Shown here one piece after another: positions 13,287 to 43,289 of a stretch of 64,000 nt of DNA. A program made the translations under genes and the position numbers. Positions within the stretch are counted from its first letter, which is position 1, and every line of letters starts with the position of its first letter. The notes below the pieces were generated by a model that did not search any database, was not told the origin of the DNA, and saw nothing but the letters and a program-made list of their open reading frames with translations. The stretch is taken from contig JACQVS010000106.1 in assembly GCA_016209605.1 (NCBI GenBank), positions 6,916-70,915 of the forward strand, read 5' to 3'. This DNA is from Planctomycetota bacterium (lineage in GTDB: Bacteria; Planctomycetota; UBA8108; JACQVS01).

Positions 13287-13298
13287 TCCCCCTTTCTT

Positions 13299-22043: not shown

Positions 22044-22123
22044 TAATGCGGGCTTCGCCCGCAACCGAGCTATCCGCAACTTCTCCGCAAGATGCGGAGA
22101 AGTTGCGGATGAAAAATTTAAAT
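22044..22123. repeat. Family A palindromic repeat, copy 2 (forward), inserted between plsX and fabH inside the FAS II cluster
   Basis: Same 80-nt core as 13299-13378, with loop AGAT. Confidence 0.8.
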
Positions 22124-26754: not shown

Positions 26755-26789
26755 GATGATTTTCCCGGAATCCTCGCTCAGGCTGCCAT

Positions 26790-26866
26790 TAGATTTTTCC
26801 TCCGCAACTTCTCCGCATCCTGCGGAGAAGTTGCGGATAGCTCGGTTGCGGGCGAAGCCCGCATTA
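26790..26866. repeat. Family A palindromic repeat, copy 3 (reverse orientation)
   Basis: Reverse complement matches the 13299 core; loop GGAT. Confidence 0.8.
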
Positions 26867-26872
26867 TCAGCT

Positions 26873-27778
26873 TCATTCGATCCTCAGCAACTCGCAAAAC
26901 CTCTGGAAGCGGTGCTCCACCTCCCCCGCCTCGGCCTCGAGCAGCCGGCGGACCCCGAACTCCTCGACGCACAGGGAGGCGACCACCGCTCCGTGGGCGA
27001 GGGCGGCCTTGAAGCCGGCGCCGTCCAGGCGCTTCGAGCGCGCCAGGTAGCCCATGAGGCCGCCGGCGAAGCTGTCGCCGGCGCCGGTGGGGTCCTTGAC
27101 GTCGTGGACGGGGAAGGCGGGCAGGGGGACGACCTGCTCGCGGGTGAAGAGCATCGCCCCGTTCTCCCCCTTCTTGATGATGGCGCGCCCCGGCCCGAGG
27201 TCGAGGATTTCCTTTCCCGCCTCCACCAGGTTGCCGGCGCCGGTGAGGAGCAGGGCTTCCGAGTCGTTGATCACCAGGCCATCGATGCGCTCGAGGAGGT
27301 CGAGCAAGTCCTGGCGCTGGGTCTGGATCCACAGGTCCATGGTGTCGGCCATGACGAAGCGGGGGCTCCTCACCTGCTCGAGGACGCTCATCTGGGTGCG
27401 CGGGGCGCTGTTGGCGAGAAAGACAAACTCGGTGTCGCGGAACGTGGCGGGCAGCTTCGGCTGGAAGTCCTTGAGAACGTTGAGCTCGACGGAGAGGGTC
27501 TCGCGCCGGTTCATGTTGTCGAAGTACTCCCCCGCCCAGCGGAAGGTCTTCCCCCCCGCCACGGTTTCGAGGCCGGCGAGATCGATCCCCCGGCGGGCGA
27601 GCAGGCGGCGGTTCTCCTCCGGAAAGTCGCCCCCCACCACCCCCACGAGGCGCACCGGCCCGTGGAAGCTCGCCGCCAGCGAAAAATAGACGGCGGCGCC
27701 GCCCAGGGTGTCGTGGAGCTGCCCTGCCGGGGTCTTGATGCTGTCAAAGGCAACGGAGCCGGCGACGAGAAGGGACAT
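26873..27778 (-). CDS. PfkB-family carbohydrate/nucleoside kinase
   Basis: 301 aa; ribokinase-fold GG motif near the N-terminus and DPTGAGDSFAGG anion-hole motif. Confidence 0.85.
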   Translation of the reverse strand: MSLLVAGSVAFDSIKTPAGQLHDTLGGAAVYFSLAASFHGPVRLVGVVGGDFPEENRRLLARRGIDLAGLETVAGGKTFRWAGEYFDNMNRRETLSVELNVLKDFQPKLPATFRDTEFVFLANSAPRTQMSVLEQVRSPRFVMADTMDLWIQTQRQDLLDLLERIDGLVINDSEALLLTGAGNLVEAGKEILDLGPGRAIIKKGENGAMLFTREQVVPLPAFPVHDVKDPTGAGDSFAGGLMGYLARSKRLDGAGFKAALAHGAVVASLCVEEFGVRRLLEAEAGEVEHRFQRFCELLRIE

Positions 27779-27910
27779 GAAGCCTCCTGGGGACTGTCCA
27801 TGGGAGCCGATAAACCAGGTAAAACCGTGAAATTATACGGTCCCGCCGCTCTCCGTCAATAAACCCTCAACTTCATTGCGGCCGGACCCCGGCCGTGCTA
27901 TCCTTTTATA

Positions 27911-28094
27911 AGAGCCTGTCCCAAAAATCCATTCGGGCTTCGGCCGGCTGCAAAGGCGCCATGCTGCGTTGGGCCTCCTCGCCTTATTTCTCCGCCTAAT
28001 AAGGCTTCGTCGGTCCGCCTTGCCTGGCGCCTTTTCGCTCGGCCTCGGGCCTCGAAGCGACTTTCGGGACAGGCTCGAAGCGGAAGAAACAGGC
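27911..28094. mobile_element. MITE-like element, family B, copy A (terminal inverted repeats AGAGCCTGTCCC / GGGACAGGCTC, plus a duplicated end fragment gaaacaggc)
   Basis: About 75% identical to the copies at 29761-29966 and 34135-34301. Shared core cttcggccggctgcaa.ggcgcc...gggcctcct.gcc. Confidence 0.65.
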
Positions 28095-28162
28095 CGGCTG
28101 AAGTTTTTATAAAAACAATCATAAATCGAATTTACATCCCCTCCCACTGCATAGAACGCCAG

Positions 28163-29221
28163 GTGCCAGCGCGAATTTTCAAGGTAGATCCCAAGCAGTT
28201 TGACCCGCAGTGCCTGTCCGAGGCCGCCGGGATCCTGCGCTCGGGGGGAATTGTCGCCTTCCCCACCGAGACGGTCTACGGCCTGGGAGCGGCGGCCGAG
28301 AATCCCGAGGCCGTCGCCCGGCTGTGCGAGCTGAAAGGCCGGCCGAAGGACCAGCCCTTGACCCTCCACCTCGCCGACCCGGCGGAGGCGGAGAAGCACG
28401 CCGGCCAGATCCCCCGCCTGGCCCGCTTGCTCATGAACCGCTACTGGCCGGGGCCTCTCACCTTGATCCTGCCGGGGAAGTCGGGCGAGCCGGTGGGCCT
28501 GCGCGCCCCCTCCCATCCGGTGGCGCGGGAGCTGCTGCGCCAGGCGGGAGCGCCGGTCGTGGCGACGAGCGCCAACCCGCACGGCCAGCCGGACGCGACC
28601 GACGCCGAGGCGGTTACCGCCTGTTTCGGCGATCGGATCGAGGCCATGGTCGACGGCGGGCCGGCGATCCTCAAGCAGGCTTCCGCCGTCGTCCGCGTCG
28701 ATGAGCAGGGCTACAAGGTGCTGCGCCAGGGGATCATCACCCACGAGATGGTCCATCAGCTGCTGGTGGGGAAGGACATCCTCTTCGTCTGCACCGGGAA
28801 CAGCTGCCGCAGCCCCATGGCCGAGGCGCTCTTCCGCAAGTATCTCGCCAGGAAGCTGTCCGTGGCCGAGGACGACCTGCGCCAGCTCGGCTACTCGATC
28901 CACTCGGCCGGCATCTCCGCCATTGACGGCGGCGTGGCCAGCTCCCTGGCCGTCAAGGTGATGAAGGACATGGAGTGCGACTTGACCCGCCACACCACCC
29001 GCCAGCTCACCGGCGAGATGGTGGAGGAGGCGGACCGCATCTACACCCTCGGCCTCACCCACTACCAGCAGCTCCTCCAGCGCTACCCGCACCTCGAGGA
29101 GAAGCTGAGCATGCTGGCGGAAGAGAGCGTCGCCGATCCCATCGGCGGCAATATCGACGCCTACTGGCAGTGCGCCCGGGAGATCGAGGAGGGGGTGAGG
29201 AGGGTCCTGGAGAATTTCTAG
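28163..29221 (+). CDS. Fusion protein: L-threonylcarbamoyladenylate synthase (YrdC/Sua5/YwlC domain) + low-molecular-weight protein tyrosine/arginine phosphatase (YwlE-like)
   Basis: 352 aa; the N-terminal half has the YrdC fold signature (VAFPTETVYGLGA...SANPHG). The C-terminal half has the LMW-PTP P-loop VCTGNSCRSPMAEA and the DP loop. Confidence 0.85.
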   Translation: MPARIFKVDPKQFDPQCLSEAAGILRSGGIVAFPTETVYGLGAAAENPEAVARLCELKGRPKDQPLTLHLADPAEAEKHAGQIPRLARLLMNRYWPGPLTLILPGKSGEPVGLRAPSHPVARELLRQAGAPVVATSANPHGQPDATDAEAVTACFGDRIEAMVDGGPAILKQASAVVRVDEQGYKVLRQGIITHEMVHQLLVGKDILFVCTGNSCRSPMAEALFRKYLARKLSVAEDDLRQLGYSIHSAGISAIDGGVASSLAVKVMKDMECDLTRHTTRQLTGEMVEEADRIYTLGLTHYQQLLQRYPHLEEKLSMLAEESVADPIGGNIDAYWQCAREIEEGVRRVLENF

Positions 29222-29250
29222 ATTTATATATTAACGCGAGGACCGGAGCC

Positions 29251-29709
29251 ATGAAAATCGCCATCGCCAGCGACCACGCCGGCAGGAACCTGCGCCGTAA
29301 GATCAAGAGCCATCTCGCCGCCCGGGGCCACGAGGTGGTCGACCTCGGCCCCGAGTCGAGCGATCCCGTCGACTACCCCGACTACGCCGTCCAGGCCGCG
29401 AGACAGGTGGCGGGCGGCAAGGCGGAGCGCGGCGTCCTGGTCTGCGGCTCGGGAATGGGCATGATGCTCAGCGCCAACAAGGTCCCGGGCATCCTGGCGG
29501 TCGTCCCCCACACGGAAGATGAGGCCAGGCTGAGCCGAGCCCACAACAACACCAACGTCGCCTGCTTCGGCGAGCGCACCCAGGACCCCGAGCAGGTCCT
29601 CCAGCTCCTGGACCTCTGGCTCGCCACCCCCTTCGAAGGCGGCCGCCACGCGAGGAGGGTCGAGAAGATCCACAAGATCGAGGAGTCCCGCCAGGGAGGG
29701 GAGAAGTAA
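29251..29709 (+). CDS. rpiB: Ribose-5-phosphate isomerase B (start at MKIAIASDHAG; the tracked 28975 start is an upstream extension)
   Basis: RpiB/LacAB motifs (IASDHAG, VLVCGSGMGM). Confidence 0.9.
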   Translation: MKIAIASDHAGRNLRRKIKSHLAARGHEVVDLGPESSDPVDYPDYAVQAARQVAGGKAERGVLVCGSGMGMMLSANKVPGILAVVPHTEDEARLSRAHNNTNVACFGERTQDPEQVLQLLDLWLATPFEGGRHARRVEKIHKIEESRQGGEK

Positions 29710-29760
29710 ACGATGGGTCCTTGCTCCTCGACAAATCCGATAATGTGGCGCGGTAAAATT

Positions 29761-29966
29761 AGAGCCTGTTTCAGTAGACCATTCGGCCACCTCTGCAAGA
29801 GCACGGGGCCGGCTGCGAAGGCGCCAGCCGGCGTTGGGCCTCCTAGCCTTATTTCTCCGGTTAATAAGGCGGCGTCGGCCCGCCTTGTCTGGCGCCTTCT
29901 CGCCGGGCACCGCCCGGCGAAAGCCGGGTGGTCGCGGGCCTCGAAGCGCCTACCGAAACAGGCTCT
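29761..29966. mobile_element. MITE-like element, family B, copy B (terminal inverted repeats AGAGCCTGTTTC / GAAACAGGCTCT)
   Basis: 206 nt. The ~20-bp terminal inverted repeats match copy C. Internal ccttatt-tctccgg-aataagg hairpin. Confidence 0.7.
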
Positions 29967-29973
29967 TAGTCGA

Positions 29974-30387
29974 CTCCTGGCCCTCGGGATCGTGGGCGCC
30001 GCCCTGATGGCGGGGCCGCCTGGCGGCTCCCTTGCCACGGCCGCGCCGGACCAGGAACCAGGCCGGGAGCAACCTTTGACCATCGGTTTCCACAAGCAGC
30101 TTCTGGTGGATGACGCCATCGTTTCTCAGCGCACCAAAGTCAGCCGTGAGCTGGGACAAGTGACCAAAGCCAACGGCGGCAAACCGCTGATCGTCGCTGA
30201 AAGATCCTGGGAGAACGCCGATCTCATCCGGCTGGGAGCCGTTTTCCGGGACGGCGGGCGATTCCGAATGTGGTATCAGATGAACGACACGCTCTTCGGC
30301 TATGCCGAATCGGAAGACGGACTGCGCTGGACCAAGCCAAACCTGGGCTTTTACGAACATGGGGGGAGCAAGGACAACAACTTGTAG
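29974..30387 (+). CDS. Hypothetical protein (signal-peptide-like N-terminus if a CTG/GTG start just after the MITE is used; possibly a truncated fragment)
   Basis: The tracked ORF 29713..30387 has an N-terminal third that is translated MITE. The remainder (…LALGIVGAALMAGPPGGSLATAAP…WENADLIRLGAVFRDGGRFRMWYQ…) is protein-like but ends abruptly; there is no recognised family. Start not established. Confidence 0.35.
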   Translation, partial: LLALGIVGAALMAGPPGGSLATAAPDQEPGREQPLTIGFHKQLLVDDAIVSQRTKVSRELGQVTKANGGKPLIVAERSWENADLIRLGAVFRDGGRFRMWYQMNDTLFGYAESEDGLRWTKPNLGFYEHGGSKDNNL

Positions 30388-30390
30388 CGC

Positions 30391-32439
30391 TCACCCCTCC
30401 GACTCGCCCGTGAAGAGGAAGTGCTGCACTCCCGCCCTCGCCCACAGCTCCTTGCGGTAGCTCTGGAAGTAGAAGTCCTGGCGCTCGCGGAGGAGATTGG
30501 CGTGGTAGTACTTCTGCCTCTCCTTGAACTCCTCGGGATTGGGATTGAGCTTGCCGTTCAACCGGACGATGTAGAAAGCCCCGTTATCATCGTCGCGCAC
30601 GGCGCGGCCTGTCTTGCCCTCCTCCTCGATGGCGCAGGCCTCTCCGATCAACAGGCTGCTGCCCGGATGGGGCCTGGTGGCGGGCCTGGAAGGCTCGTCG
30701 CCCGGCGCCTCGGTCTTTTTCTTCCTGGCCGCTTTTTCATCCGGAACCTGAATCGAACCGTAGCGCTTCAGGAAGGGGCTGTCCACCACCTTGGCGCCGG
30801 CTTCCTTGGCGGCCTCCTCGAAGGACTTCTTCCCCTCGCGGATCGCCGCGGCCAGCGCCTCGGCCTGGTCGCGCAGCCGGTCCAGCGCCCGCGCCTTGAT
30901 CAGCTCATCGCGGGCCTCATCCTTCACCGGCTCGACACTGGTGGGGAGGCCGGGGTAGCGCACCTTGAGGTCGTGGTAAAGCACCAGGCCGTCCTTGTCC
31001 TGGGTCTCCTGCCAGAATTCCGCCACCTTGATGGCCACCTTCTTGCTCTCGTCCGTCTCCTTGGCGTTCTTGTCGGCGGTGGCGAACCAGCTCGAGACCT
31101 GGAAGGTGTAAAGGTTGCCGAGCTTGTCCAAGGCCTCCGGGCGGGTGAACCACTCCGAGGCGCCGGCCTGGAAATAGGGGTGCTTCTGCGCCACCTCGGC
31201 GGCGGTGGCGGGCTTCGCCGGGGCGGCCGGCGCCGGCTGATTCTCGCCCGAGCCGGCCGGCGGCGCCGCCGGCTTCTCCTCCGGCATCAGCATCTTCCGG
31301 ATCTCGTCGGCGGCCTTCCTCGCCAGCTCCTGGCTTTTCGATCTGGTGAGGTCCTTCACCACCTCGGCGCGCACCGCCTCGAGGGGCTTGTAGAGCTTCT
31401 GCTCGCGGGCCTCTTTATCCTGCGAGGAGAGCAGGTTGAACTCCGACTCGTCGACGTTCAGCCCCACCGAGTACTTCTCCTGCCGGGTGCGCAGGTACTC
31501 GCTTTTGATGTCGTCCTCGGTGAGCTGCGCCTCCTTCTCGAACACCTCGAAAGGAATGAAGTAGTGGCCGACCTGGATCTTGGACTCCTTGAGCTTGAAG
31601 CTGTCGAGGTTGTCCTCGAAGTGTTTTTTGATCTCCGCATCGGTGATCTTGGCGGCCACCTCCTCCTTGAGCTTGGCATCGGGCTTGAGCTCGAAGAAGG
31701 AAAGCTTGCGCAGCTGCTCCCTGCGCTGGTATTCCTGGTAAACCTCATCGGGATTGATTTGCGCCGAGTTGCGGGCATAGTCCACCGCCTTCTCGGCCTT
31801 GAGGTAGTTGGCCAGCATGGTCTCGAATTTCCGCGGGGAGACGCCGCTGATGCGGTGCTCCTGGAACTTCCTGAAGAGGCGCAGCCAGTCGGCGAGGTCC
31901 CAGGCGTTCGCCTTGCGCAGATCCTCCTTGCGCTGGAACCAGGCCATCCGGAGGTTGTCGAGCTTGCCGCCCGGCGCTGCGGCATTGGCGGCGCGGGCAT
32001 CCTCGGCGGCCCTCATGCCCCAGTAAATTTCCCGGATCGCCGCCCCCAATTCATCCTTCGAGATGATGATCCCCAGGCGGTCGGCCTCGTGCTGGAAGAG
32101 GAGATAGTCAACCCAGTCGAGGCGGCCATCCCGGCCCTCGCCGAAGCGGAGCGGGCGGAAGGTGTCGGCCAGGAAGGTATTGATCACCAGGATTTCCGAG
32201 TTCGCCGCGATCTGGTCCCGGTCATAAATCACCTTCCTGTCGATCTTCAGCCGCGGCGATTTGCTTCCCAGTGTGCCGAAGTAAGTCGTCGTGGCCCCGG
32301 TGAAGGCAAAGGAGAAGGAAATCAGCACCAGGAGGACCACCCAGAAGACTTTCTCGTTGACCTTGACCCAGAGCCAGAACCGGTCCCAGGTGGTTTGCTC
32401 CTTGCGGCGCCGGTGCTCCATACGATCGTGCTTGGCCAT
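30391..32439 (-). CDS. Membrane-anchored periplasmic chaperone, PpiD/SurA-like (putative)
   Basis: 682 aa; N-terminal TM helix (VFWVVLLVLISFSFAF), long charged periplasmic domain resembling SurA_N/PpiD chaperone modules. No clear parvulin catalytic motif was seen, hence low confidence. Confidence 0.45.
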   Translation of the reverse strand: MAKHDRMEHRRRKEQTTWDRFWLWVKVNEKVFWVVLLVLISFSFAFTGATTTYFGTLGSKSPRLKIDRKVIYDRDQIAANSEILVINTFLADTFRPLRFGEGRDGRLDWVDYLLFQHEADRLGIIISKDELGAAIREIYWGMRAAEDARAANAAAPGGKLDNLRMAWFQRKEDLRKANAWDLADWLRLFRKFQEHRISGVSPRKFETMLANYLKAEKAVDYARNSAQINPDEVYQEYQRREQLRKLSFFELKPDAKLKEEVAAKITDAEIKKHFEDNLDSFKLKESKIQVGHYFIPFEVFEKEAQLTEDDIKSEYLRTRQEKYSVGLNVDESEFNLLSSQDKEAREQKLYKPLEAVRAEVVKDLTRSKSQELARKAADEIRKMLMPEEKPAAPPAGSGENQPAPAAPAKPATAAEVAQKHPYFQAGASEWFTRPEALDKLGNLYTFQVSSWFATADKNAKETDESKKVAIKVAEFWQETQDKDGLVLYHDLKVRYPGLPTSVEPVKDEARDELIKARALDRLRDQAEALAAAIREGKKSFEEAAKEAGAKVVDSPFLKRYGSIQVPDEKAARKKKTEAPGDEPSRPATRPHPGSSLLIGEACAIEEEGKTGRAVRDDDNGAFYIVRLNGKLNPNPEEFKERQKYYHANLLRERQDFYFQSYRKELWARAGVQHFLFTGESEG

Positions 32440-32576
32440 GTTGAACTCCTTGACGAAGCCTCGCTCCCGGAGCCTTCCGATCCTTCCGGAAGCCGGGGCG
32501 AGGCGCCTGGCTTATTGATCGATCAAATTCCGAGCAAATCAATATAAGCCACGGAGCCGCTCCCCTGCAAATAGTT

Positions 32577-34130
32577 TTACCATGAAATGAGCACCTGCGC
32601 CTTGAGGGCGTGCAGCTCCTTGAAGTCCGGGTTCAAGAAGCGGTAATCTTTCTCGTAATCGTAAGCGATCAAAAAACTCAGTATGCTCATGGGCCGCCAG
32701 CGGACATGGGCCTGAAGCGCCCAGGCGTTCAGGCCGGCGAGGTCCGCGAAGCGGTTTGAGTACTCATAGTTGCGCAGCTCGACCGCCGTTCCCACCGCCA
32801 CCTTGCGAGCCCAGTCCTGCTCGAGCCGCGCCTCGAGGCCGACGAAGCGCGGCTCGCCGTCGCCGGTCACGTCGCTGATAAAGCGAGGATCATCCCGGTC
32901 GTAATACTGCCGCCTCGGGAGGTCGGTATCGAGGTAGCGGATGACGGCGCGGCCGGTCAAGCCCTCCCAGGGGAAGTGCAGCGAGTCAAGGCCGCCCCAG
33001 ACCTCGCGCCAGTCGGAGTTGTAGGCATCGCGGTCCGAGCGGCCGCGCACCCAGTGGCCGGTCCCTCCCAGGAGGAGGCCGAAGGATCCGGTGATCTCCT
33101 GGCGGACCTCGAGGCTCGCTTCATCGTAAGGGTCGATCTCTCCGAGGTTGAAGTGGCGGTCATGGTCGCGGTCCTCGACCGGGGCGCGCTCCGAGAAGGT
33201 GTAGTCGAAGGTGAAGTCGTTCGAGGACCGCCCCAGCCGGCCATAGTAGCTTCCGCGCGCCTCCAGCCCCCAGCCGGACTCCTGGAAGACCGCCTCGAGC
33301 TGCGCCGACTCGGGATGCTCGTTCACCTGGCGGTAGAGGAGCTGCATCGAGGCCAGCGGCCCCAGCCTCTGGAGGAGCGAGGCTTTCAGGGAGTTGTCGA
33401 GGTAATAGACGTCGGCAAACTCGAACTCGGTCCCCTGGGCGGGAAAATACTTGAGCGCGCCGCCGTAAAGGCCGGTCCTGGACACGCTGGGAAAGTAAGT
33501 CGCCCGCGCCCCGGCGAAGGCGTCGATCTCCACCGGCCGGTCAAAGAGCCCCAGCCCGCGGACATGGATCCGGCCGCCGTCGAAGTGGACGTACTCGGCC
33601 CCCTCGAAGTACTGCCGGCCCCCGGTGAACTCGAGATGCCTCTGGAGAAGGAGCGCTTTGAAGTTCAAGGCGCCGAGCTGCGCCTGGTCGCCGCCCGGAA
33701 AGCGGTCGTAAGCGCCGAGCGATTCGTTTCCAGCCGCGGTGCCGTCGAGGTCGGTGAAACCGCGGATGGAAAACTCGGTGTCCAGGCCCTGGCACCAGCC
33801 GCTCTGGGTTGCCGGCACGATCAGGTCATGAGTGCGCACCGCGAAGTACTGGTCGAGGTCGTGGTCTTGGTTGCGGCGGCGGCGGTCCTCCAGCTCGGCG
33901 GCGAACTGCCGGTCGGCGGGGTCGATGTCCGGAAAGTTGAAACGGAAGCGTCCGAAGCGAAAGAACTGCGCCTGATAAGCGGCCCGATAGGTGAGGTGGA
34001 GCTTCCCCTTGAGGGTCGGATCCTTCCACAGCTCCGCCGCCCCGGGCTTCTTCTCCTCCGCCGGGCCCGGCCGGCATGAAAGGAACAGCGCCGCCAGGAA
34101 CGCGAACAGCCCGGCCAGTCGCGCTGCCAG
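32577..34130 (-). CDS. Outer-membrane beta-barrel protein (putative porin partner of the upstream multiheme cytochrome). Start re-placed after the MITE; the tracked start at 34367 reads through the element
   Basis: Lipoprotein-type signal sequence (RLAARLAGLFAFLAALFLSC) immediately after the MITE. Alternating amphipathic beta-strand pattern; C-terminal aromatic residue (…VLISW). Only a CTG is available as a start at 34130, so the start is uncertain. Confidence 0.55.
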   Translation of the reverse strand: MAARLAGLFAFLAALFLSCRPGPAEEKKPGAAELWKDPTLKGKLHLTYRAAYQAQFFRFGRFRFNFPDIDPADRQFAAELEDRRRRNQDHDLDQYFAVRTHDLIVPATQSGWCQGLDTEFSIRGFTDLDGTAAGNESLGAYDRFPGGDQAQLGALNFKALLLQRHLEFTGGRQYFEGAEYVHFDGGRIHVRGLGLFDRPVEIDAFAGARATYFPSVSRTGLYGGALKYFPAQGTEFEFADVYYLDNSLKASLLQRLGPLASMQLLYRQVNEHPESAQLEAVFQESGWGLEARGSYYGRLGRSSNDFTFDYTFSERAPVEDRDHDRHFNLGEIDPYDEASLEVRQEITGSFGLLLGGTGHWVRGRSDRDAYNSDWREVWGGLDSLHFPWEGLTGRAVIRYLDTDLPRRQYYDRDDPRFISDVTGDGEPRFVGLEARLEQDWARKVAVGTAVELRNYEYSNRFADLAGLNAWALQAHVRWRPMSILSFLIAYDYEKDYRFLNPDFKELHALKAQVLISW

Positions 34131-34134
34131 CCTA

Positions 34135-34301
34135 AGAGCCTGTTTCAGTAGCCCTCCTGGCTTCGGCCGGCTGCAAGTGCGCCATACTGCGTTGCGCCTC
34201 CTCGCCGATACTCTCCGACTGTATCGCCTACGTCGGCGCGCCTTGTCTGGCGCGCTTTCGCTCGGCCTCGGGCCGACGGATGACCTACCGAAACAGGCTC
34301 T
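34135..34301. mobile_element. MITE-like element, family B, copy C, inserted between the multiheme cytochrome gene and its downstream beta-barrel gene
   Basis: Terminal inverted repeats ctAAGAGCCTGTTTCAGTAG / CTACCGAAACAGGCTCTaaaa. Internal cgatac-tctccgact-gtatcg hairpin, with a compensatory change relative to copies A and B. Confidence 0.7.
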
Positions 34302-34363
34302 AAAATCCGGCTCCAGCACCGGCCGGGGCGGCCAAAAACACGGTTGAGGAGGGAGGGATCGGC

Positions 34364-35104
34364 TCATGGGGGGCTATGGCAGGGGGCGCAATTGCCCTGG
34401 AAGGAGTGGCAGGTCAAGCAGGCGCGCACCTTGAGCCGCGCCACTTGCTTGTGGCCGCCCGCCCGGAAGGTCGGCGTATGATCGGGCGGCGGCTGGCGGT
34501 GGCAGTTCTCGCAGAAATCGGAGCTGTGGCAGGTGGCGCAGGAGCGGCGGTCCTGGATGGCATACCGGCCGTGGGTGGAGCGCAGGAAGCGGAGGTTGTG
34601 GGACTGCGGCTTCCAGGTGCTGTGGCACTGCTGGCACTCGGACTCGAGGTGGCACAGAGAGCACTTGTAGGCCTCGCGGCGGGCCATGTCCTTGTGATGG
34701 CCGGTCCACGCCGCGGTGTGGAAGCGCGGCTTGCGCTCGCGGCGGTTCTCCACATGGCAGGTCTCGCAGGCCTGCGATTTCTCCACCCCGTTGTGGCACT
34801 GGAAGCAGGTCTTCATCGGCGGCAGGCCTCCGGCGAGCACTTCCTCCCGAGAGGCGCTCTGGCCGTGGCAGGTCGAGCAGTCGAGCTTGCGGTGCAGCTC
34901 GTGGGAGAAGATGATCTCTTGATGAGAATAGGGGGGGTGGTTCTGAGAGAAGGAAAGCGGCGCCAGGGAACCTTCCTCGAGTTGATCGATGTCGATGATG
35001 GTGCAGCCCAGGACGAGAACTGCCGCCACGAGGACGCAGGCGAAGGGAACCCGGAAACTTGACAAATTCCGAGAGAAAAGTAAAGGCAACACCATCTCCT
35101 TCAC
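34364..35104 (-). CDS. Periplasmic or lipid-anchored multiheme c-type cytochrome (9 CxxCH sites)
   Basis: 246 aa; CSTCH, CFQCH, CETCH, CSLCH, CQQCH, CATCH, CENCH, CLTCH, CAPCH. N-terminal signal with a possible lipobox (VLGC). Its stop overlaps the ATG of the downstream ORF (ATGA). Confidence 0.85.
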   Translation of the reverse strand: MKEMVLPLLFSRNLSSFRVPFACVLVAAVLVLGCTIIDIDQLEEGSLAPLSFSQNHPPYSHQEIIFSHELHRKLDCSTCHGQSASREEVLAGGLPPMKTCFQCHNGVEKSQACETCHVENRRERKPRFHTAAWTGHHKDMARREAYKCSLCHLESECQQCHSTWKPQSHNLRFLRSTHGRYAIQDRRSCATCHSSDFCENCHRQPPPDHTPTFRAGGHKQVARLKVRACLTCHSFQGNCAPCHSPP

Positions 35105-35234
35105 ATGCGGCCGTAACGACAGCCAGGGTTTACATGAGTTGACAGAATCGCTTCAGACCCCCCATTCCACCCGGCCTCAAGACCGGGCACCGGCAGTTCC
35201 GATGGAGACAATTCCGATGATGAAATTTTATCGC

Positions 35235-35714
35235 TTATCGGCCGACAGGGCTACCCCCAAGGCCATCGGTATGCCGGTCCATGGCCTCGTTGACCAGCCG
35301 GTCGCAGCGCTCGTTCTCCCGGTCCCCGGAGTGCCCCTCGACCCACCTCCACTCCATCTGGTGGCGGCGGGTCAGCTCCAGGATGCGCTCCCAGAGGTCC
35401 CGGTTGAGGACGGGCTTCTTGCTGGCGGTCCTCCACCCCCTCTCCACCCACCGCGGCAGCCATTCCGTGATGCCGCGCCGCAGGTACTGGGAGTCGGTGG
35501 TCAAGATGACCTGGCAAGGCCTCTTGAGCTGCTCCAGCGCCCGGATGGCGGCAGTCAGCTCCATGCGGTTGTTGGTGGTGTGAGGCTCGACGCCCGAGAT
35601 CTCCTTGCGGAGCGCCCCCGAGACGAGCACGGCCGCCCAGGCCCCCAGCCCCGGATTGCCCCGGCAACCGCCGTCGGTGTAAATCAGGACTTTCTTATTA
35701 CCCCGTTTCATCAC
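35235..35714 (-). CDS. rnhA: Ribonuclease HI
   Basis: 159 aa; [23 protein letters not shown] catalytic motifs. Confidence 0.9.
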
Positions 35715-35803
35715 AACTCCCGCATTTAAACAACAAGCCTCAGTTCAGAAAAACAATCACCTGGCCGTTTGAGAAGATCTAGCGTTTGAGAAGATTTAGC
35801 ATA

Positions 35804-38065
35804 TTACTCGATGATGCCCAGAAAATGGAAGCGGATTTCCCGCATATCCGCATCCAGCTCGGACAGGACCACCCGGACGCGCTGGCCGAGGCGGATGGCG
35901 CGGCGGCGGCGGCAGCCCTTCAGGCAGAAGTCCTCCGGATCGTATTCGTAATAGTCATCCACCAGGGTCGACAAGTGGACCAGCCCATCGATGAGCAGCC
36001 CCTCCACCTGCACGAAAAAGCCGAAAGGGTGGATGCCGGTCACCATGCCCGCCATCTCCTCGCCGACGCGGCTCTTCAAGTGGCGGATGATCCGCAGGCG
36101 GGTCATCTCGCGCTCCGCCTCCTCGGCGCGGCGCTCGGCGTGGGAGGACTCGACGGCGCAGCGCGGCAGATCCTCCGCCCACTCGATCTTCCTTCGAGCG
36201 CCTTTCAACCGGCCCCCCCAGTGCTCATCCAGCACCTGATGCACCAGCAGGTCCGGATAGCGGCGGATGGGGGAGGTGAAGTGGCAGTAGGTGCTGGTCG
36301 CCAGGGCGAAGTGCAGTCCAGCCTCGGCGGCGTACTCGGCGTGCGGCAGGCTGCGCAAGAGCTCGAGGTGGACGATGGGGGCGTACGGCGCTCCCCGCAC
36401 CCCGGCCGCGATCGCCTGCAGGCCGGTCGAGCCCTTCTTCCTTGACCTTCCGACGAGCTTCGGCTCGATCTTCTCGAGGAAGTAAAAGAACTCCTCCAGG
36501 CTCTCTTCATCCGGCTCGTTGTGGACGCGCGAGATGAGCGGCAGCCCGTGACTGCCGAAAAAAGCGGCCACGGCCTCGTTGGCCGCGAGCATGAACTCCT
36601 CGATGAGGTGATGGGAGGGATCGCGGCGGTCCTGGGCGATCTTGACCACCTCGCCGGCCCCATCGACGGTCAAGCGCGCTCGCGCGATATCGAGTTCGAG
36701 CGCTCCCCGCTCGAGCCGCCTCCGGTGCAGGAGGTCCCGCAGCTCGGCCATTTGATTCAGGACCTCCAGGTAGTCGCGGTAGTCGCCGGGCGGCAGCCGC
36801 GGGCTTTCGCCGGCCGTCCCTGAACGCGCCGCGCCGCCCCGTCGATCCACCTCCTCGAGTATGGCCAGCACCTCCTCGTAAGTGAAGCGCCGGCGGTTGT
36901 GGATGAGGCTGCGGAAGAGGCGGTAGTTGACCAGGCGGCCGGCGGCGTCGAAGTCCATGAGCGCGGTCTTGGTCAAACGGTCCTGATCGGGCCGCAGGCT
37001 GGCGAGGTCGTTGGCCAGGCGTTCGGGCAGCATCGGCACCACCCGCCCCGGCAGGTAAATCGAGGTCCCCCGCTCCCGCGCCGAGCGGTCCAGGGCCGAG
37101 CCGGAGGGGACGTAATGGGAGACATCGGCAATGTGCACCCCGAGGCGGTAACCTCCTCCCTCAAGGCGCTCGAGCGACACCGCGTCGTCGAAATCCCTGG
37201 CGTCTTCAGGATCGATGGTGATGGCGAGGAGATGGCGGAGATCCTCCCGTCCCTCCCGGGCCTTTTCCCTGGAAAGGTCCGGCAGTCGGGCCGCCTCCTC
37301 GAGGGCGGATTCCGGCTGCTCCACCGGGAAGCCGAATTCGGCGGCGATCTCCTGGAAATCGGCTTCCAGGCTCCCCTCCTCGCCGCTCGTGTGGACCACC
37401 TCCCCCACCGGATAAATCCCGTAGCCCCGTCCCTCCACCAGGCGCACCAGCACTCTCTGGCCATCCTGGGCCTCGGCCTCGCTGCCGGGGGGGATGTAAA
37501 TTTTCGCCGTGGGATTCTTGAAGGGGATGACGAAGCCCGGCTCCTTCTCCCTGCCCTTCTTGTTGCATCGGGCTCTGGCAGCCTGGTACTGGCCGCGGAT
37601 GAGGCCCCTCGAGCGCCGGACGATATCGACCACCCGCCCTTCCCGCAGCCGGGCCTCCACCCGGGGCGCCTTGCCGGCGCGCCCGCGGCGCTCCGGGCGG
37701 CGCGCCCCCCGGTGGCGGCGCCTTTCGATCTCCACCAGCACCAGGTCCCCATCGAAGCCGCCGGCGATCGCCTTCGGCGGGATGAAGATGTCGCCGGCGT
37801 GCTCGGGGCGGAGCAGCTCGACGAATCCGTGGCCGCGGCGGGTGACCTTGAGGAGCCCGACGCGGTAAGGGGCGCGCTCGGGAAGCACCCAGCCGCTTTC
37901 GGGAACGCGGACCAGCTGCCCGCTCTCCTGGAAATCGGAGAGCAGCGTCACCAGATCATCGAATTCGGAGTCCTGGACTTCGAAGATTTTGGCCAGGTCG
38001 CGGGTTTTCACGCCCTCATGGCGGCGGATTTCCTGGAGGAGCCGTTCGGAGGATGGAAGCATCAA
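35804..38065 (-). CDS. rnr: Ribonuclease R (RNB family exoribonuclease with C-terminal S1 domain)
   Basis: 753 aa; RNB motif LAITIDPEDARDFDDAVS, cold-shock-like N-terminal domains, S1 tail. Confidence 0.92.
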   Translation of the reverse strand: MMLPSSERLLQEIRRHEGVKTRDLAKIFEVQDSEFDDLVTLLSDFQESGQLVRVPESGWVLPERAPYRVGLLKVTRRGHGFVELLRPEHAGDIFIPPKAIAGGFDGDLVLVEIERRRHRGARRPERRGRAGKAPRVEARLREGRVVDIVRRSRGLIRGQYQAARARCNKKGREKEPGFVIPFKNPTAKIYIPPGSEAEAQDGQRVLVRLVEGRGYGIYPVGEVVHTSGEEGSLEADFQEIAAEFGFPVEQPESALEEAARLPDLSREKAREGREDLRHLLAITIDPEDARDFDDAVSLERLEGGGYRLGVHIADVSHYVPSGSALDRSARERGTSIYLPGRVVPMLPERLANDLASLRPDQDRLTKTALMDFDAAGRLVNYRLFRSLIHNRRRFTYEEVLAILEEVDRRGGAARSGTAGESPRLPPGDYRDYLEVLNQMAELRDLLHRRRLERGALELDIARARLTVDGAGEVVKIAQDRRDPSHHLIEEFMLAANEAVAAFFGSHGLPLISRVHNEPDEESLEEFFYFLEKIEPKLVGRSRKKGSTGLQAIAAGVRGAPYAPIVHLELLRSLPHAEYAAEAGLHFALATSTYCHFTSPIRRYPDLLVHQVLDEHWGGRLKGARRKIEWAEDLPRCAVESSHAERRAEEAEREMTRLRIIRHLKSRVGEEMAGMVTGIHPFGFFVQVEGLLIDGLVHLSTLVDDYYEYDPEDFCLKGCRRRRAIRLGQRVRVVLSELDADMREIRFHFLGIIE

Positions 38066-39300
38066 TGGATGGTCTTGATGATTTCAATCAGCGGCAGGAA
38101 CAGGGCCACGACGATGAAGCCGACGGCGACACCCATGCCGACGATGAGGATGGGCTCGATCAGGCTCGACATTCCTTCCACCGCCACGTCGACGTCGTTT
38201 TCGTAGTTGTCGGCGATCTTGATGAGCATCTTGTCCAGCTCGCCGGTCTCCTCGCCGACGTCGATCATGTTCACCACCAGCTCGTCGAACACTCCCGAGG
38301 CGCGCAGCGGGTCGGCCACGGTTTCACCCTCGCGGATGCTGCCGTGCACCTGCTCGATGGCGCCCTGGATGACGGTGTTGCCAATGGCGTCCTTGACGAT
38401 CCTCAAGGCCTCGAGGATCGGCACGCCGGAGGCGATGAGCGTTCCCAGCGTCCGGGTGAAACGGGAGATGGCGGACTTCTTGACGATGATCCCGAAGCCC
38501 GGGACGCTGAGCTTGAACTTGTCGATCATGAAGCGGCCCTTGTCGCTCCTCGAGATGGCGTTCCAGCTGATGATGAAGACAAAGGGAACGCCCAGGAAGA
38601 GGTACCAGAACTCCTTGATGGTGCGGCTGACCGAGAGGAGCATTTGCGTCATCGCCGGCAAGTTCCGCCCGATGTCCTTGAACATGCTTTCAAAGCTCGG
38701 CACCACGACCACCATGATCAAAGTCAGGATGGCGGTCGCCACCAGGGTGACGGCGATAGGATAGATCATGGCCCCCTGGATCTTCTTCTTCAGCTTCTGG
38801 GACTTTTCCATGAAGCCGGCCAGACGGTTGAGGATGACGTCCAGGACGCCGCCGGCCTCGCCGGCCTTCACCATGCTCTGATACAGCTTGTCGAAGGTGC
38901 GGGGATGTTTGGAAAGGGCTTCCGAGAGCGTGCTGCCGCCTTCCACCTCCTCGGCCACCATGGCGAGCTGGTCTTTGAACTTGCCCGGCCTCTGCTGCGT
39001 CTCGAGGATCTTGATGCTGCGGACGATGGGGAGGCCCGCGTCTTGGAGGATGGCGAACTGCGTGGTGAAGGTGGTCACCTGAGCGTTCGAAACGCGGTCG
39101 AAGAGGACGAACTTCTTCTTGCCTTTTTTCTCGCCGGCGGCCCTGGGCTTGGCAGGCGCGCCGGCCTTCAAGGCAATCTTGGTCGGGCGGAAGCCCTGGG
39201 ACTTGAGCCGCTTGATAGCTTCGTCCTTCGAGGGCGCCTCCACTTCCTGGCGAATCTTTTGCCCGTTGACGTCGACTGCTTCATAAGCGAAGACCGGCAT
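38062..39300 (-). CDS. Type II secretion / type IV pilus platform protein (GspF/PilC family)
   Basis: 412 aa; two T2SSF repeats, three TM segments. Overlaps rnr by 4 nt. Confidence 0.9.
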   Translation of the reverse strand: MPVFAYEAVDVNGQKIRQEVEAPSKDEAIKRLKSQGFRPTKIALKAGAPAKPRAAGEKKGKKKFVLFDRVSNAQVTTFTTQFAILQDAGLPIVRSIKILETQQRPGKFKDQLAMVAEEVEGGSTLSEALSKHPRTFDKLYQSMVKAGEAGGVLDVILNRLAGFMEKSQKLKKKIQGAMIYPIAVTLVATAILTLIMVVVVPSFESMFKDIGRNLPAMTQMLLSVSRTIKEFWYLFLGVPFVFIISWNAISRSDKGRFMIDKFKLSVPGFGIIVKKSAISRFTRTLGTLIASGVPILEALRIVKDAIGNTVIQGAIEQVHGSIREGETVADPLRASGVFDELVVNMIDVGEETGELDKMLIKIADNYENDVDVAVEGMSSLIEPILIVGMGVAVGFIVVALFLPLIEIIKTIH

Positions 39301-39437: not shown

Positions 39438-41141
39438 TTAGATGCTCGCAATCGTCTCCTTCACGACTTCCTCGATGGTGGTGATCCCGTCATAAATGTG
39501 CAGGAGGCCGCTTTCGCGGAGGGTGCGCATGCCTTCTTCCTTGGCCACTTGCCGGAGCTCGGCCGTTGAGCCGCTCTTCATGATGGTCTCCTTGATGCGG
39601 TCGCTTGCCAGCATGATCTCGAGAACGGCGATACGGCCCTTGTAGCCGCTGCCGTTGCAGCGCTTGCAGCCTTTGCCGTAGTAGAACTGCTTCCCCTCGA
39701 CATCGGAGGGGGTCAGCTCCAGCTCGTAAAGCTCCTTGTCGGAGGGGTCGTACGGCATCTTGCACTCGGCGCAGATGCGCCGCACCAGCCGCTGGGCCAG
39801 GATGCCTTCCAGGGTGGCGGTGATCAAGAAAGGCTCCAGGCCAAGGTCGACGAGGCGGGTCACCGCTGAAGGCGCATCGTTGGTGTGCAGGGTGGTGAAA
39901 ACGATGTGTCCCGTCAAGGAAGCCTCCACGGAGATCTGCGCGGTCTCCAGGTCGCGCACCTCGCCGACCAGGATGATGTCCGGGTCCTGGCGCAGGATGG
40001 AGCGCAGGCAGTTCGCGAAGGTGACGCCGATTTCCTCGTTGATCTGCACCTGGACAATGCCCTCGAGGTCGTACTCCACCGGGTCCTCCGTGGTGATGAT
40101 CTTGACATCGATGGTATTGGCCTCATTGAGGGCTGAATAGAGGGTGGTGGTCTTGCCGGAGCCGGTTGGGCCGGTCACCAGGATGATGCCGTCGGGCTTG
40201 GCGATGAGGTTGCGGAAGATGCGCAGCTCATCTGACCTGAAGCCGAGCTGGTCGAGGTTGAGGCTGACGTTGGCGCGGTCGAGAACACGCAGCACCACGC
40301 TCTCGCCGAACATGGTCGGCAGGGTCGAGACGCGCAAGTCGACGGGATTGCCGCCGATATTGAGCTCGATGCGCCCATCCTGCGGCAGGCGGGTTTCGGC
40401 GATGTCCAGGTTGGAGAGCACCTTGACGCGGGAGATGAGCGCCCGGGCCAGCTGGATGGGGGGCGGCATCATTTCGTAAAGCACGCCGTCGACGCGGTAC
40501 CGCACCTTGAACTCGTGCTCGAAGGGCTCGAGGTGGATGTCGGAGCCGCGGTCGCGCACCGCCTGGAGGAGGACCATGTTGAGGAGCTTCACGACCGGGG
40601 CGGCGTTCACATCCTTCTCCAGCTGCTCGATGTTGATGTCTTCCCGCTTCGAGGTGATATCCAGCTTCCCATCGCCCATTTGACTGAGGTAATCACTGAC
40701 GCCGCTGCTCTTGTTATAATAGCGCTCGATGCATTGATGGATCGCCTCCTTGCCGCCGACCAGGGCCTTGAAGGCCGGGATCTTGGGCAGGGAGAAGCGC
40801 AAGTCCTCGAGGACGTTCAGGTTGGTCGGGTCGGCAATGGCCACCGTCAGGGTGTGGCCGTCGTAAAGCAAGGGCATGACCTCGAGGGTCTCGGCAGTGT
40901 TCTGATCCACCAGGTCCAGGACCTCGGGTGCGATCTCCGCCTTGGAGAGGTCGGCGAACTCCATGCCCGCCTGCTTGGCCAGGGCGCGGGTCAGATCGGC
41001 ATCGGTGATGGCGCCGCTCTCCATCAGGATCTGTCCGATAGCTCCGCCACTGTCCTTCTGCTTCTTGAGAGCTTGCTGGATATCAAACTCTTTCAAGATG
41101 TTCATTTCCTTGAGGATTTGACCGATAAAGTGTCGAGCCAT
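39438..41141 (-). CDS. GspE/PilB-family secretion ATPase (paralog 1) with N-terminal GspE_N/MshEN-like domain
   Basis: 567 aa; Walker A GPTGSGKTT, Asp and His boxes, tetracysteine CAEC…CKRC zinc motif. Confidence 0.9.
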   Translation of the reverse strand: MARHFIGQILKEMNILKEFDIQQALKKQKDSGGAIGQILMESGAITDADLTRALAKQAGMEFADLSKAEIAPEVLDLVDQNTAETLEVMPLLYDGHTLTVAIADPTNLNVLEDLRFSLPKIPAFKALVGGKEAIHQCIERYYNKSSGVSDYLSQMGDGKLDITSKREDINIEQLEKDVNAAPVVKLLNMVLLQAVRDRGSDIHLEPFEHEFKVRYRVDGVLYEMMPPPIQLARALISRVKVLSNLDIAETRLPQDGRIELNIGGNPVDLRVSTLPTMFGESVVLRVLDRANVSLNLDQLGFRSDELRIFRNLIAKPDGIILVTGPTGSGKTTTLYSALNEANTIDVKIITTEDPVEYDLEGIVQVQINEEIGVTFANCLRSILRQDPDIILVGEVRDLETAQISVEASLTGHIVFTTLHTNDAPSAVTRLVDLGLEPFLITATLEGILAQRLVRRICAECKMPYDPSDKELYELELTPSDVEGKQFYYGKGCKRCNGSGYKGRIAVLEIMLASDRIKETIMKSGSTAELRQVAKEEGMRTLRESGLLHIYDGITTIEEVVKETIASI

Positions 41142-43187: not shown

Positions 43188-43264
43188 TAGATTCTTCCTC
43201 CGCAACTTCTCCGCAGCCTGCGGAGAAGTTGCGGATAGCTCGGTTGCGGGCGGAGCCCGCATTA
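43188..43264. repeat. Family A palindromic repeat, copy 4 (reverse orientation)
   Basis: Reverse complement matches the 13299 core; loop GGCT. Confidence 0.8.
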
Positions 43265-43289
43265 TGAGAAAAACCGTTCCGGCGGCCGC

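What the first reader, a model, noticed from the sequence alone, without database searches (positions are those of the whole stretch)
32577..35104. Candidate porin-cytochrome electron conduit: 9-heme cytochrome translationally coupled to an outer-membrane beta-barrel gene, now split by a MITE
The 246-aa protein has nine CxxCH motifs in ~200 residues after a signal peptide. That is the density of MtrA/PioA/OmaB-type periplasmic multiheme cytochromes. Its stop overlaps (ATGA) the start of an ORF that leads, after a 167-nt inserted element, into a gene for a protein with a lipoprotein-type signal peptide. That protein has beta-strand-rich sequence and a C-terminal aromatic residue, consistent with an outer-membrane beta-barrel. 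Cytochrome-then-porin gene order is the hallmark of the MtrAB/PioAB/MtoAB and Geobacter Pcc conduits. A PpiD/SurA-like chaperone gene is the next gene downstream. The beta-barrel is shorter (about 515 aa) than MtrB, so it may be a distinct family. The MITE separates the two genes and leaves the barrel gene without a canonical ATG. This raises the question of whether the conduit is still expressed.
Basis: partly seen in the sequence, partly recalled or inferred. Interest (0 to 1): 0.7.

Follow-up and report, generated by a model that had tools for sequence, protein, structure and literature searches.

The report
Porin-cytochrome pair carrying an in-frame MITE

Summary

The porin-cytochrome reading is well supported:
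- The cytochrome-barrel pair is present in all 8 orthologous loci.
- In 9 of 9 distant loci (Planctomycetota, Omnitrophota, Schekmanbacteria, an uncultured Desulfuromonas and others) a homologous barrel lies next to a homologue of this cytochrome. Giant multiheme cytochromes often lie nearby, and quinol-dehydrogenase-type genes in two loci.
- Two distant relatives are cytochrome-barrel fusions.

- The gene is not split. The 167-nt element is an in-frame insertion in codons 22-79, upstream of the signal peptide's hydrophobic core. A 90%-identical orthologue has the same start and an empty site.
- The cytochrome is a conserved lipoprotein of the c7/c3 type, not detectably related to MtrA or DmsE.
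- The barrel is not in the MtrB_PioB family and matches no Pfam or NCBIfam model.

Homology to the Geobacter Pcc porins could not be tested. Whether the longer signal peptide still works is unknown.

The parts
34364..35104 (-). Nine-heme c-type cytochrome gene. The product is 246 aa from the GTG start, or 243 aa from the ATG at codon 4. It is predicted to be a lipoprotein (lipobox ...VLGC, Cys34).
   Evidence: It has nine CxxCH motifs. Pfam Cytochrome_C7 scores 31.9 bits and Cytochrom_CIII 27.7 bits, both above threshold. All nine motifs, nine further His residues and the G33-C34 lipobox are conserved across 57 homologues.
32577..34367 (-). Outer-membrane beta-barrel gene of about 22 strands. 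It is one continuous 596-aa ORF that includes the MITE-derived codons. The barrel belongs to an unmodelled protein family.
34364..34367 (-). ATGA overlap between the cytochrome stop and the barrel start. The arrangement fits translational coupling.
   Evidence: Read directly from the sequence. The same 4-nt overlap occurs in L003 and L016, and there is a 1-nt overlap in the reversed gene order of L013.
34135..34301 (.). MITE-like element, copy C: 167 nt from terminal repeat to terminal repeat. It is inserted in frame in codons 22-79 of the barrel gene, in the n-region of the signal peptide.
   Evidence: Repeat family D2. Terminal repeats. The site is empty in orthologue L016, and the window has a net +189 nt (63 codons) there. 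As RNA the element folds into a hairpin of -99 kcal/mol, z-score -6.8. There is no Rfam match.
34146..34158 (-). AGGAGG followed 4 nt later by an in-frame CTG (codon 74), inside the 3' end of the MITE. This is a possible non-canonical restart that would give MKQALRLAARLAG...
   Evidence: Read directly from the sequence. Use of this site as a start is inference only.
34074..34130 (-). Hydrophobic core of the barrel's signal peptide (LAARLAGLFAFLAALFLSC), immediately after the MITE.
   Evidence: Translation. The orthologues have ordinary N-terminal signal peptides at this position.
30391..32439 (-). Neighbouring 682-aa membrane-anchored protein with a weak SurA_N-like region. It is a conserved neighbour within this lineage only and is probably not part of the module.
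   Evidence: Pfam SurA_N_2 and SurA_N_3 hits are below threshold. It is syntenic in L001, L002 and L003. It is absent from the distant clusters.
27911..28077 (.). MITE copy A, in the intergenic region between the PfkB-family kinase gene and the Sua5 gene.
29761..29966 (.). MITE copy B, 206 nt with an internal extra segment. It lies in a roughly 1.1-kb stretch that the orthologous loci lack.
   Evidence: For comparison, the intergenic gaps in L001 and L003 are 72 nt and 41 nt.

Best explanation
The two genes encode a minimal porin-cytochrome module. One part is a 9-heme c-type cytochrome, lipid-anchored and probably bis-His ligated throughout. The other is a roughly 22-stranded outer-membrane barrel.

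Mechanism (inferred). After Sec export and heme attachment, the elongated heme chain sits in or against the barrel lumen. Nine hemes is enough length to cross a membrane. Electrons could then pass between periplasmic carriers and an extracellular donor or acceptor such as Fe, Mn or humic substances. The direction of flow is unknown. The overlapping stop and start fit matched synthesis of the two parts.

Status in this genome. A 167-nt MITE has landed in the barrel gene, 63 nt downstream of its ATG. It keeps the frame open and adds a net 63 codons relative to the MITE-free orthologue; the stretch translated from the element itself is about 56 arginine-rich residues. It also places a very stable hairpin ahead of the hydrophobic core of the signal peptide. 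The gene is therefore intact on paper, but its export efficiency is uncertain.

Shown here: the anatomy, the barrel fold, the conservation and co-occurrence, the fusions, and the in-frame insertion with an empty site in an orthologue.
Inferred: physical insertion of the cytochrome in the barrel, electron transfer, and expression.

For: 2. Cytochrome. The nine CxxCH motifs are invariant, nine further His residues are conserved, and the lipobox G-C is present in at least 90% of 57 homologues. There are about 27 residues per heme.

3. Orthologous loci. All eight (L001-L008, 39-51% barrel identity) have an 8- or 9-heme ORF directly upstream of the barrel.

4. Distant loci. A profile search of 1.84 billion representative proteins found 178 relatives. 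In 9 of 9 distant loci examined, the barrel lies next to a homologue of this cytochrome. These homologues score 40-143 bits, have 11-15 hemes where the gene is complete, and are mostly lipoproteins. The loci are L009, L011, L012, L013, L014, L015, L017, L045 and L046.

5. Cluster content. The distant clusters also hold multiheme cytochromes of roughly 940-1590 aa (L015, L017, L045, L046). One has a molybdopterin oxidoreductase, FeS and NrfD set (L014). One has a NapC/NirT-type cytochrome (L045).

6. Fusions. P0154 (870 aa) and P0164 (982 aa, 11 CxxCH) join a multiheme domain to the N-terminus of a barrel of this family.

7. Literature. Pcc systems are described as having porins with 18-22 predicted strands and partner cytochromes with 5-14 hemes. 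They include two-gene clusters without an outer cytochrome (PMC4245776).
Against: - No experiment exists for any member. All sampled relatives are 'hypothetical protein' from uncultured genomes.
- This locus has no outer-surface cytochrome and no inner-membrane quinol dehydrogenase. No other multiheme ORF exists in the 64 kb. The neighbours are housekeeping genes: fab genes, alaS, Sua5, RNase H, RNase R and PilB/PilC.
- The cytochrome is lipidated, unlike the soluble barrel-inserted MtrA and OmaB, so its topology is open.
- The heme-free cytochrome model has pTM 0.40 and gave no usable structural match. An elongated wire shape is therefore not shown.
- No complex prediction was possible.
- The MITE may impair export or translation of the barrel in this strain.
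Confidence: 0.68

Rival explanations
1. The module is real in the lineage but dead in this strain. The MITE lengthens the part of the signal peptide ahead of the hydrophobic core (the n-region) to about 80 residues and adds a hairpin of -99 kcal/mol. As a result the barrel is not made or not exported, and the locus is an incipient pseudogene.
For: - The insertion is absent from the 90%-identical orthologue and from all other orthologues.
- No canonical start codon lies between the element and the hydrophobic core.
- The hairpin is strong, with z-score -6.8.
Against: - The frame is open across the element, and no frameshift or stop occurs anywhere in 596 codons.
- The rest of the protein keeps all family-invariant residues.
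- The inserted residues are Arg-rich, which is compatible with an n-region.
- An AGGAGG-CTG pair inside the element could give a normal-length signal peptide.
Confidence: 0.3
2. The barrel is an ordinary solute porin or transporter and the cytochrome is an unrelated periplasmic or membrane-anchored electron carrier. On this view their adjacency is only inherited gene order.
For: - Within the Planctomycetota lineage the pair sits in a block of conserved housekeeping synteny.
Against: - The adjacency holds in 9 of 9 distant loci from several other phyla, with no other shared neighbours and with the gene order reversed.
- Two independent cytochrome-barrel fusions exist.
- Overlapping stop and start codons recur.
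Confidence: 0.07
3. The pair works in assimilation or protection rather than respiration. Examples are an outer-membrane ferric reductase or ferrous oxidase coupled to iron uptake through the barrel, or detoxification of extracellular oxidants.
For: - The context is housekeeping, constitutive-looking, and contains no respiratory partner.
- The pair is vertically conserved across a Planctomycetota clade not known for metal respiration.
Against: - Distant family members sit in clusters typical of extracellular respiration, with giant multiheme cytochromes, NrfD complexes and NapC/NirT.
- Nothing in the window points to iron transport.
Confidence: 0.15

Closest known systems
Geobacter-type porin-cytochrome (Pcc) clusters, including OmbB-OmaB-OmcB and ExtABCD/EFG/HIJKL, and the two-gene pcc clusters of Anaeromyxobacter and Candidatus Kuenenia (PMC4245776, PMC6148476)
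   Same: - The barrel size class matches: 18-22 predicted strands in Pcc porins, about 22 here.
- The barrel gene is adjacent to a compact multiheme cytochrome (5-14 hemes in Pcc, 9 here and 11-15 in complete relatives).
- Two-gene versions without an outer cytochrome exist.
- In distant relatives the gene order is barrel, then cytochrome, then a large outer cytochrome.
- One relative comes from an uncultured Desulfuromonas, the order that contains Geobacter.
   Different: - Sequence homology to OmbB, ExtB, ExtE, ExtI or the Kuenenia porin could not be tested.
- None of 30 sampled family clusters came from a cultured Geobacter or Anaeromyxobacter.
- The partner cytochrome here is a lipoprotein, whereas OmaB, ExtA and ExtG are predicted to be soluble periplasmic proteins.
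- The gene order is reversed in this lineage (cytochrome, then barrel).
- The context is housekeeping genes.
MtrAB, MtoAB and PioAB (the MtrCAB complex, PDB 6R2Q)
   Same: - The working principle is the same: a multiheme cytochrome paired with an outer-membrane barrel.
- The gene order is cytochrome then barrel.
- Two-gene forms without an outer cytochrome occur (MtoAB, PioAB).
   Different: - There was no Pfam MtrB_PioB hit.
- The cytochrome has no hit to DmsE/MtrA decaheme models or to the solved MtrA. It has 9 hemes rather than 10, is built from c7-like and paired-CxxCH units, and is lipidated.
Cyc2, and fused porin-cytochromes such as GM18_3465 (PMC4245776, PMC5566968)
   Same: Distant members of this barrel family (P0154, P0164) are single polypeptides in which the cytochrome is fused to the barrel.
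   Different: - The window locus has two separate genes.
- Cyc2 has a single heme.
- GM18_3465 carries its hemes in loops, not in an N-terminal domain.
MITEs, the short non-autonomous elements with terminal inverted repeats
   Same: - It has 12-14-nt terminal inverted repeats, is about 165 nt long and has no coding capacity.
- There are three copies in 64 kb, and an orthologue has an empty site.
- In metagenomes, copies that are 99-100% identical occur at different sites.
   Different: - The target-site duplication could not be defined.
- No parent transposase was identified.
- This copy is translated as part of a signal peptide.

Membership tests
MtrB/PioB outer-membrane barrel family (Pfam PF11854) | Significant match to the MtrB_PioB profile | tested here: not met
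   The Pfam scan of the 596-aa ORF returned no family at E<=0.1. A profile search against solved-structure sequences gave no MtrB hit at E<=10.
MtrB/PioB outer-membrane barrel family (Pfam PF11854) | Large barrel: 26 strands in the solved MtrB, 28 predicted | tested here: not met
MtrA/DmsE/PioA decaheme cytochromes | Match to the decaheme models, with ten CxxCH motifs in a soluble periplasmic protein | tested here: not met
   The protein has nine CxxCH motifs. There was no TIGR03508 hit at E<=0.1 and no match to the solved MtrA at E<=1. It has a conserved lipobox.
Geobacter-type Pcc (porin-cytochrome) clusters as defined by Shi et al. 2014 | [quoted passage not shown] | tested here: met
Geobacter-type Pcc (porin-cytochrome) clusters as defined by Shi et al. 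2014 | Porin gene adjacent to a gene for a multiheme cytochrome with 5-14 hemes | tested here: met
   A 9-heme gene overlaps the barrel start. The arrangement is conserved in 8 of 8 orthologous loci and 9 of 9 distant loci.
Geobacter-type Pcc (porin-cytochrome) clusters as defined by Shi et al. 2014 | BLAST-level similarity (E<0.01) to OmbB/OmbC or OmaB/OmaC | not testable with these tools
   No Geobacter sequences could be retrieved. NCBIfam gave only weak sub-threshold hits of the cytochrome to ExtN and ExtO models (22 and 17 bits against a 200-bit cut-off). Sampling 30 family clusters found no Geobacter member.
Geobacter-type Pcc (porin-cytochrome) clusters as defined by Shi et al. 2014 | Outer-membrane (extracellular) cytochrome gene in the cluster. 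This feature is present in most known clusters but not all. | tested here: not met
   There is no second multiheme ORF in the 64-kb window. Distant relatives do have one.
   The only Pfam hits above threshold are Cytochrome_C7 and Cytochrom_CIII. There were no Cytochrom_NNT or NrfB-like hits.
Bacterial lipoprotein (for the cytochrome) | Signal peptide ending in a lipobox with an invariant Cys | tested here: met
   The sequence reads ...AAVLVLGC at Cys34. G33 and C34 are present in at least 90% of 57 homologues. The adjacent homologues in L009, L011, L013, L014, L017, L045 and L046 also have a lipobox.
MITE | Terminal inverted repeats, small size, no ORF, several copies | tested here: met
   It has 12-nt perfect terminal repeats and is 167 nt long. 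There are three copies in the window. Elements with the same ends occur in 27 metagenome contigs, with near-identical copies at different sites.
MITE | Empty site in a related genome | tested here: met
   L016, whose barrel is 90% identical at the protein level, lacks the element at the same position.
MITE | Target-site duplication | tested here: inconclusive
   The flanks are often TA...AA(G), but this is not consistent between copies. About 22 nt next to the insertion cannot be aligned with the empty site.

The most novel reading that the evidence does not exclude
The barrel and its lipoprotein multiheme partner form a cross-phylum outer-membrane electron-conduit family of their own. The family has no database model and is evolutionarily separate from both the Mtr and the Geobacter Pcc families. 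In it, a lipid-anchored cytochrome with 9-15 hemes is the constant barrel partner. A whole Planctomycetota clade keeps a stripped-down one-cytochrome version as a vertically inherited core gene pair. The in-frame MITE copy would then show that a mobile element can be absorbed into a working signal peptide.
Probability: 0.3. Interest if true: 0.65.

Novelty: new member of a known kind. Interest (0 to 1): 0.5.

Why it matters
Outer-membrane electron conduits are recognised mostly by homology to a few Shewanella and Geobacter proteins. This barrel family matches no Pfam or NCBIfam model, and every sampled member is annotated 'hypothetical'. Profile-based annotation with these libraries therefore probably misses it.

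The evidence here gives a testable handle on extracellular electron exchange in uncultured Planctomycetota, Omnitrophota, Schekmanbacteria and other lineages. That evidence is:
- co-occurrence with a homologous lipoprotein cytochrome in every locus examined;
- cytochrome-barrel fusions;
- full extracellular-electron-transfer-like clusters in distant relatives.

The family has a simple signature, GRQ-x5-AE-x4-DG, plus a terminal aromatic residue. This signature could seed an HMM.

The MITE adds a small separate point. It is an in-frame insertion translated within a signal peptide, not a gene disruption.

Tried and rejected
- The afdb50 fold library was not available. I could not look for annotated AlphaFold-database relatives of the barrel.
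- I tried three routes to link the barrel family to Geobacter OmbB or the Ext porins. These were an NCBIfam scan of 10 family members, a third homologue search with a Desulfuromonas-centred profile, and sampling of 30 clusters for source names. Only hypothetical proteins from uncultured genomes turned up.
- A search of solved-structure sequences with the barrel profile gave nothing significant. The same search with the chaperone-like neighbour gave nothing.
- The promoter and terminator scan of 30200-35900 was no better than shuffled sequence and gave no operon boundaries.
- An Rfam search of 27500-35500 found no family for the repeat.
- I rejected the 'gene split, no start' reading.
- I rejected the barrel as a lipoprotein, because its Cys is not conserved.
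- I rejected the chaperone-like gene as a module component, because it is absent from all distant clusters.
- P0172 and P0195 look like barrel fusions to ferredoxin-like and ResB-like parts. Each has an internal signal peptide, so I treated them as probable merged gene calls, not evidence.
Full report
**What is in the sequence**

The genes of the finding lie on the minus strand.
- ORF 34364-35104 encodes a 246-aa protein with nine CxxCH motifs, at residues 76, 100, 113, 148, 157, 189, 198, 229 and 239. It is the only ORF in the 64-kb window with two or more such motifs.
- Its TGA overlaps the ATG of ORF 32577-34367 (596 aa) in the sequence ATGA.
- The next gene downstream is 30391-32439 (682 aa).
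- The window has 62% G+C. The 596-aa protein is identical to GenBank 'hypothetical protein HY717_09555 [Planctomycetes bacterium]', which is annotated as one protein.

**The inserted element**

A repeat family has three copies in the window. Alignment and a pattern search define perfect 12-nt terminal inverted repeats, AGAGCCTGTTTC...GAAACAGGCTCT. They lie at 27911-28077, 29761-29966 and 34135-34301, and the last copy is 167 nt long. There are 10 matches to the terminal repeat against 1.55 expected by chance.

As RNA, the copy in the barrel gene folds into one long hairpin of -99 kcal/mol, with z-score -6.8. It matches no Rfam family.

Elements of 155-177 nt with the same ends occur in 27 metagenome contigs whose G+C ranges from 40% to 75%. 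Within them are subfamilies that are 99-100% identical but sit in different flanking sequence. This is the behaviour of a mobile MITE family. A target-site duplication could not be defined.

**The gene is not split**

The orthologue P0002 is 90% identical and 540 aa long. It starts with the same MSRSL..PQP.FWPP peptide, and its start overlaps the stop of a partial upstream gene on a short contig whose 3' end aligns with the 3' end of the window's cytochrome gene. It lacks the insert. Compared with that empty site, the window has a net +189 nt, or 63 codons. The element occupies codons 22-79 of the ORF and has no stop codon in that frame.

The only in-frame ATG, GTG or TTG codons ahead of the hydrophobic core LAARLAGLFAFLAALFLSC are ATG 34367 and GTG 34319. 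Both lie upstream of the element. But the ORF is continuous, and the coupled ATG is the ancestral start.

The consequence is a signal peptide whose segment ahead of the hydrophobic core (the n-region) is about 80 residues long, with an added Arg-rich stretch. Inside the element's 3' end, AGGAGG (34158-34153) precedes an in-frame CTG (34148-34146). A start there would give a normal-looking MKQALRLAAR-LAGLFAFLAALFL signal peptide. This is an observation from the sequence only. Whether that site is used is unknown.

**The downstream protein is an outer-membrane barrel**

Pfam and NCBIfam give no hit, so it is not in the MtrB_PioB family. An AlphaFold2 model built on 11 sequences has pLDDT 75, pTM 0.71 and about 22 beta-strands.

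The C-terminal residue is W or F in all 11 orthologues and follows an alternating hydrophobic strand. This is the usual signal for barrel assembly.

The Cys after the hydrophobic core is present only in this protein and in P0002. The barrel is therefore probably not a lipoprotein.

**The cytochrome**

Pfam places it in the c7/c3 class, with Cytochrome_C7 at 31.9 bits and Cytochrom_CIII at 27.7 bits, both above threshold. NCBIfam gives only weak sub-threshold hits to ExtO, ExtN and QrcA, and none to the DmsE/MtrA, NrfB or NapC models. The best hits among solved structures are c7-like domains, such as the heme subunit of alternative complex III. MtrA does not appear.

Across 57 homologues the following are conserved:
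- All nine CxxCH motifs are invariant.
- Nine further His residues are conserved, enough for bis-His ligation of every heme.
- G33-C34 of a lipobox is present in at least 90% of the sequences.

The protein is therefore a lipoprotein. It is built from an N-terminal three-heme c7-like unit followed by three repeats of a two-heme unit (CxxCH-x4/5-CxxCH). Its heme-free AlphaFold2 model has pTM 0.40 and gave no usable structural neighbour.

**Evidence that the two proteins work together**

- *Orthologues.* In all eight orthologous loci, with barrels 39-51% identical, an 8- or 9-heme ORF lies directly upstream of the barrel. Four-nucleotide overlaps recur.
- *Distant relatives.* A profile search of 1.84 billion representative proteins found 178 relatives at E<1e-3. 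None has a Pfam or NCBIfam model for the barrel part. I examined nine distant loci. They include Planctomycetota, Schekmanbacteria, an uncultured Desulfuromonas and a relative of an Omnitrophota protein. In every one, the barrel lies next to a homologue of the window's cytochrome, and in eight of them that homologue is the gene immediately downstream of the barrel. These homologues score 40-143 bits, have 11-15 hemes where the gene is complete, and are mostly lipoproteins.
- *Cluster content.* The distant clusters add what this locus lacks. Four hold multiheme cytochromes of roughly 940-1590 aa (L015, L017, L045, L046). L014 has a molybdopterin oxidoreductase, FeS and NrfD set. L045 has a NapC/NirT-type cytochrome.
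- *Fusions.* Two relatives are fusion proteins, with a multiheme domain joined to the N-terminus of the barrel: P0154, and P0164 with 11 CxxCH motifs. In L009 the P0164 fusion is followed by a 12-heme lipoprotein homologue of the window's cytochrome.

Taken together, these results make chance adjacency very unlikely.

**Comparison with known systems**

The pair works like a porin-cytochrome conduit. It fails the membership tests for MtrAB/PioAB on both proteins.

It fits the descriptive definition of Geobacter-type Pcc clusters. That definition covers porins with 18-22 predicted strands, an adjacent cytochrome with 5-14 hemes, and two-gene forms such as those in Anaeromyxobacter and Kuenenia (PMC4245776; see also PMC6148476). 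I could not obtain those sequences, so homology is untested.

Differences from the known conduits:
- The constant partner cytochrome is lipidated.
- In this Planctomycetota lineage the gene order is cytochrome then barrel.
- The cytochrome is shortened to 9 hemes.
- There is no second cytochrome.
- The pair sits in conserved housekeeping synteny: PilB/PilC, RNase R, RNase H, cytochrome, barrel, SurA_N-like gene, Sua5, alaS, fab genes.

The SurA_N-like neighbour is conserved only within this lineage. Its chaperone assignment is weak.

**Verdict**

The 'split gene' reading, the 'MtrA-type periplasmic cytochrome' reading and the lipoprotein barrel are not supported.

I rate it a new member of a known kind. 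The open possibility is that it represents a separate, so far unmodelled conduit family.

What remains unknown: the direction of electron flow, the physiological partner, the physical complex, and whether the version carrying the MITE is expressed and exported.

Noticed in passing
window 13293-13378, 22044-22122, 26789-26870, 43188-43271: A second repeat family of about 80 nt is present in four copies, 92-96% identical, in both orientations. All copies sit at or just beyond gene ends in intergenic gaps. Each copy holds two adjacent hairpins (GCGGGCTTCGCCCGC and CCGCAACTTCTCCGC...GCGGAGAAGTTGCGG). It looks like a REP-like or terminator-like element.
   Followed up: no
window 29761-29966 (copy B), 34135-34301 (copy C); L042 417-580: In three separate places, an element with these terminal repeats is open in the same frame relative to its end (AGA GCC TGT TTC = RACF ... 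KQAL). In each case a signal-peptide-like hydrophobic core follows at once: SRLLALGIVGAALMAG, RLAARLAGLFAFLAALFL and IACLLLLALPAAAHA. Most of the other 27 copies are not inside ORFs. This could be chance, a preference for inserting at gene 5' ends, or selection for tolerated in-frame insertions.
   Followed up: partly
window 29222-30390: The window has about 1.1 kb between the Sua5 gene and the SurA_N-like gene, where orthologous loci L001 and L003 have gaps of only 72 and 41 nt. The stretch holds MITE copy B and a 224-aa ORF (29713-30387, + strand) with no Pfam hit, which reads through the MITE. It may be a remnant of an inserted gene for a secreted protein.
   Followed up: partly
27 metagenome contigs L018-L044: Elements of about 160 nt with the same 12-nt ends occur in contigs with G+C from 40% to 75%. 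Their internal sequences differ between subfamilies, but some copies at different sites are 99-100% identical (L020, L024, L028 and L036; L035, L037 and L043). This suggests one transposase specificity serving many MITE lineages across distant hosts.
   Followed up: partly
window 39438-41141 and 41237-42925: Two tandem paralogous PilB/GspE-type secretion ATPase genes lie next to a PilC/GspF gene (38062-39300). They account for direct repeats D1, D5 and D6.
   Followed up: no
P0195 (1123 aa) and P0172 (773 aa), distant barrel relatives: In these gene calls the barrel is joined to a ResB-like cytochrome c biogenesis protein and to a 4Fe-4S ferredoxin-like region. Each has an internal signal peptide before the barrel part, so they are probably merged neighbouring genes. 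If so, their neighbours are still redox or cytochrome-maturation genes.
   Followed up: no
window 35095-35104: The cytochrome's start is ambiguous. One option is GTG at 35104 (246 aa). The other is ATG at codon 4, directly preceded by AAGGAG (243 aa). A database entry with the identical sequence uses the 243-aa form.
   Followed up: no
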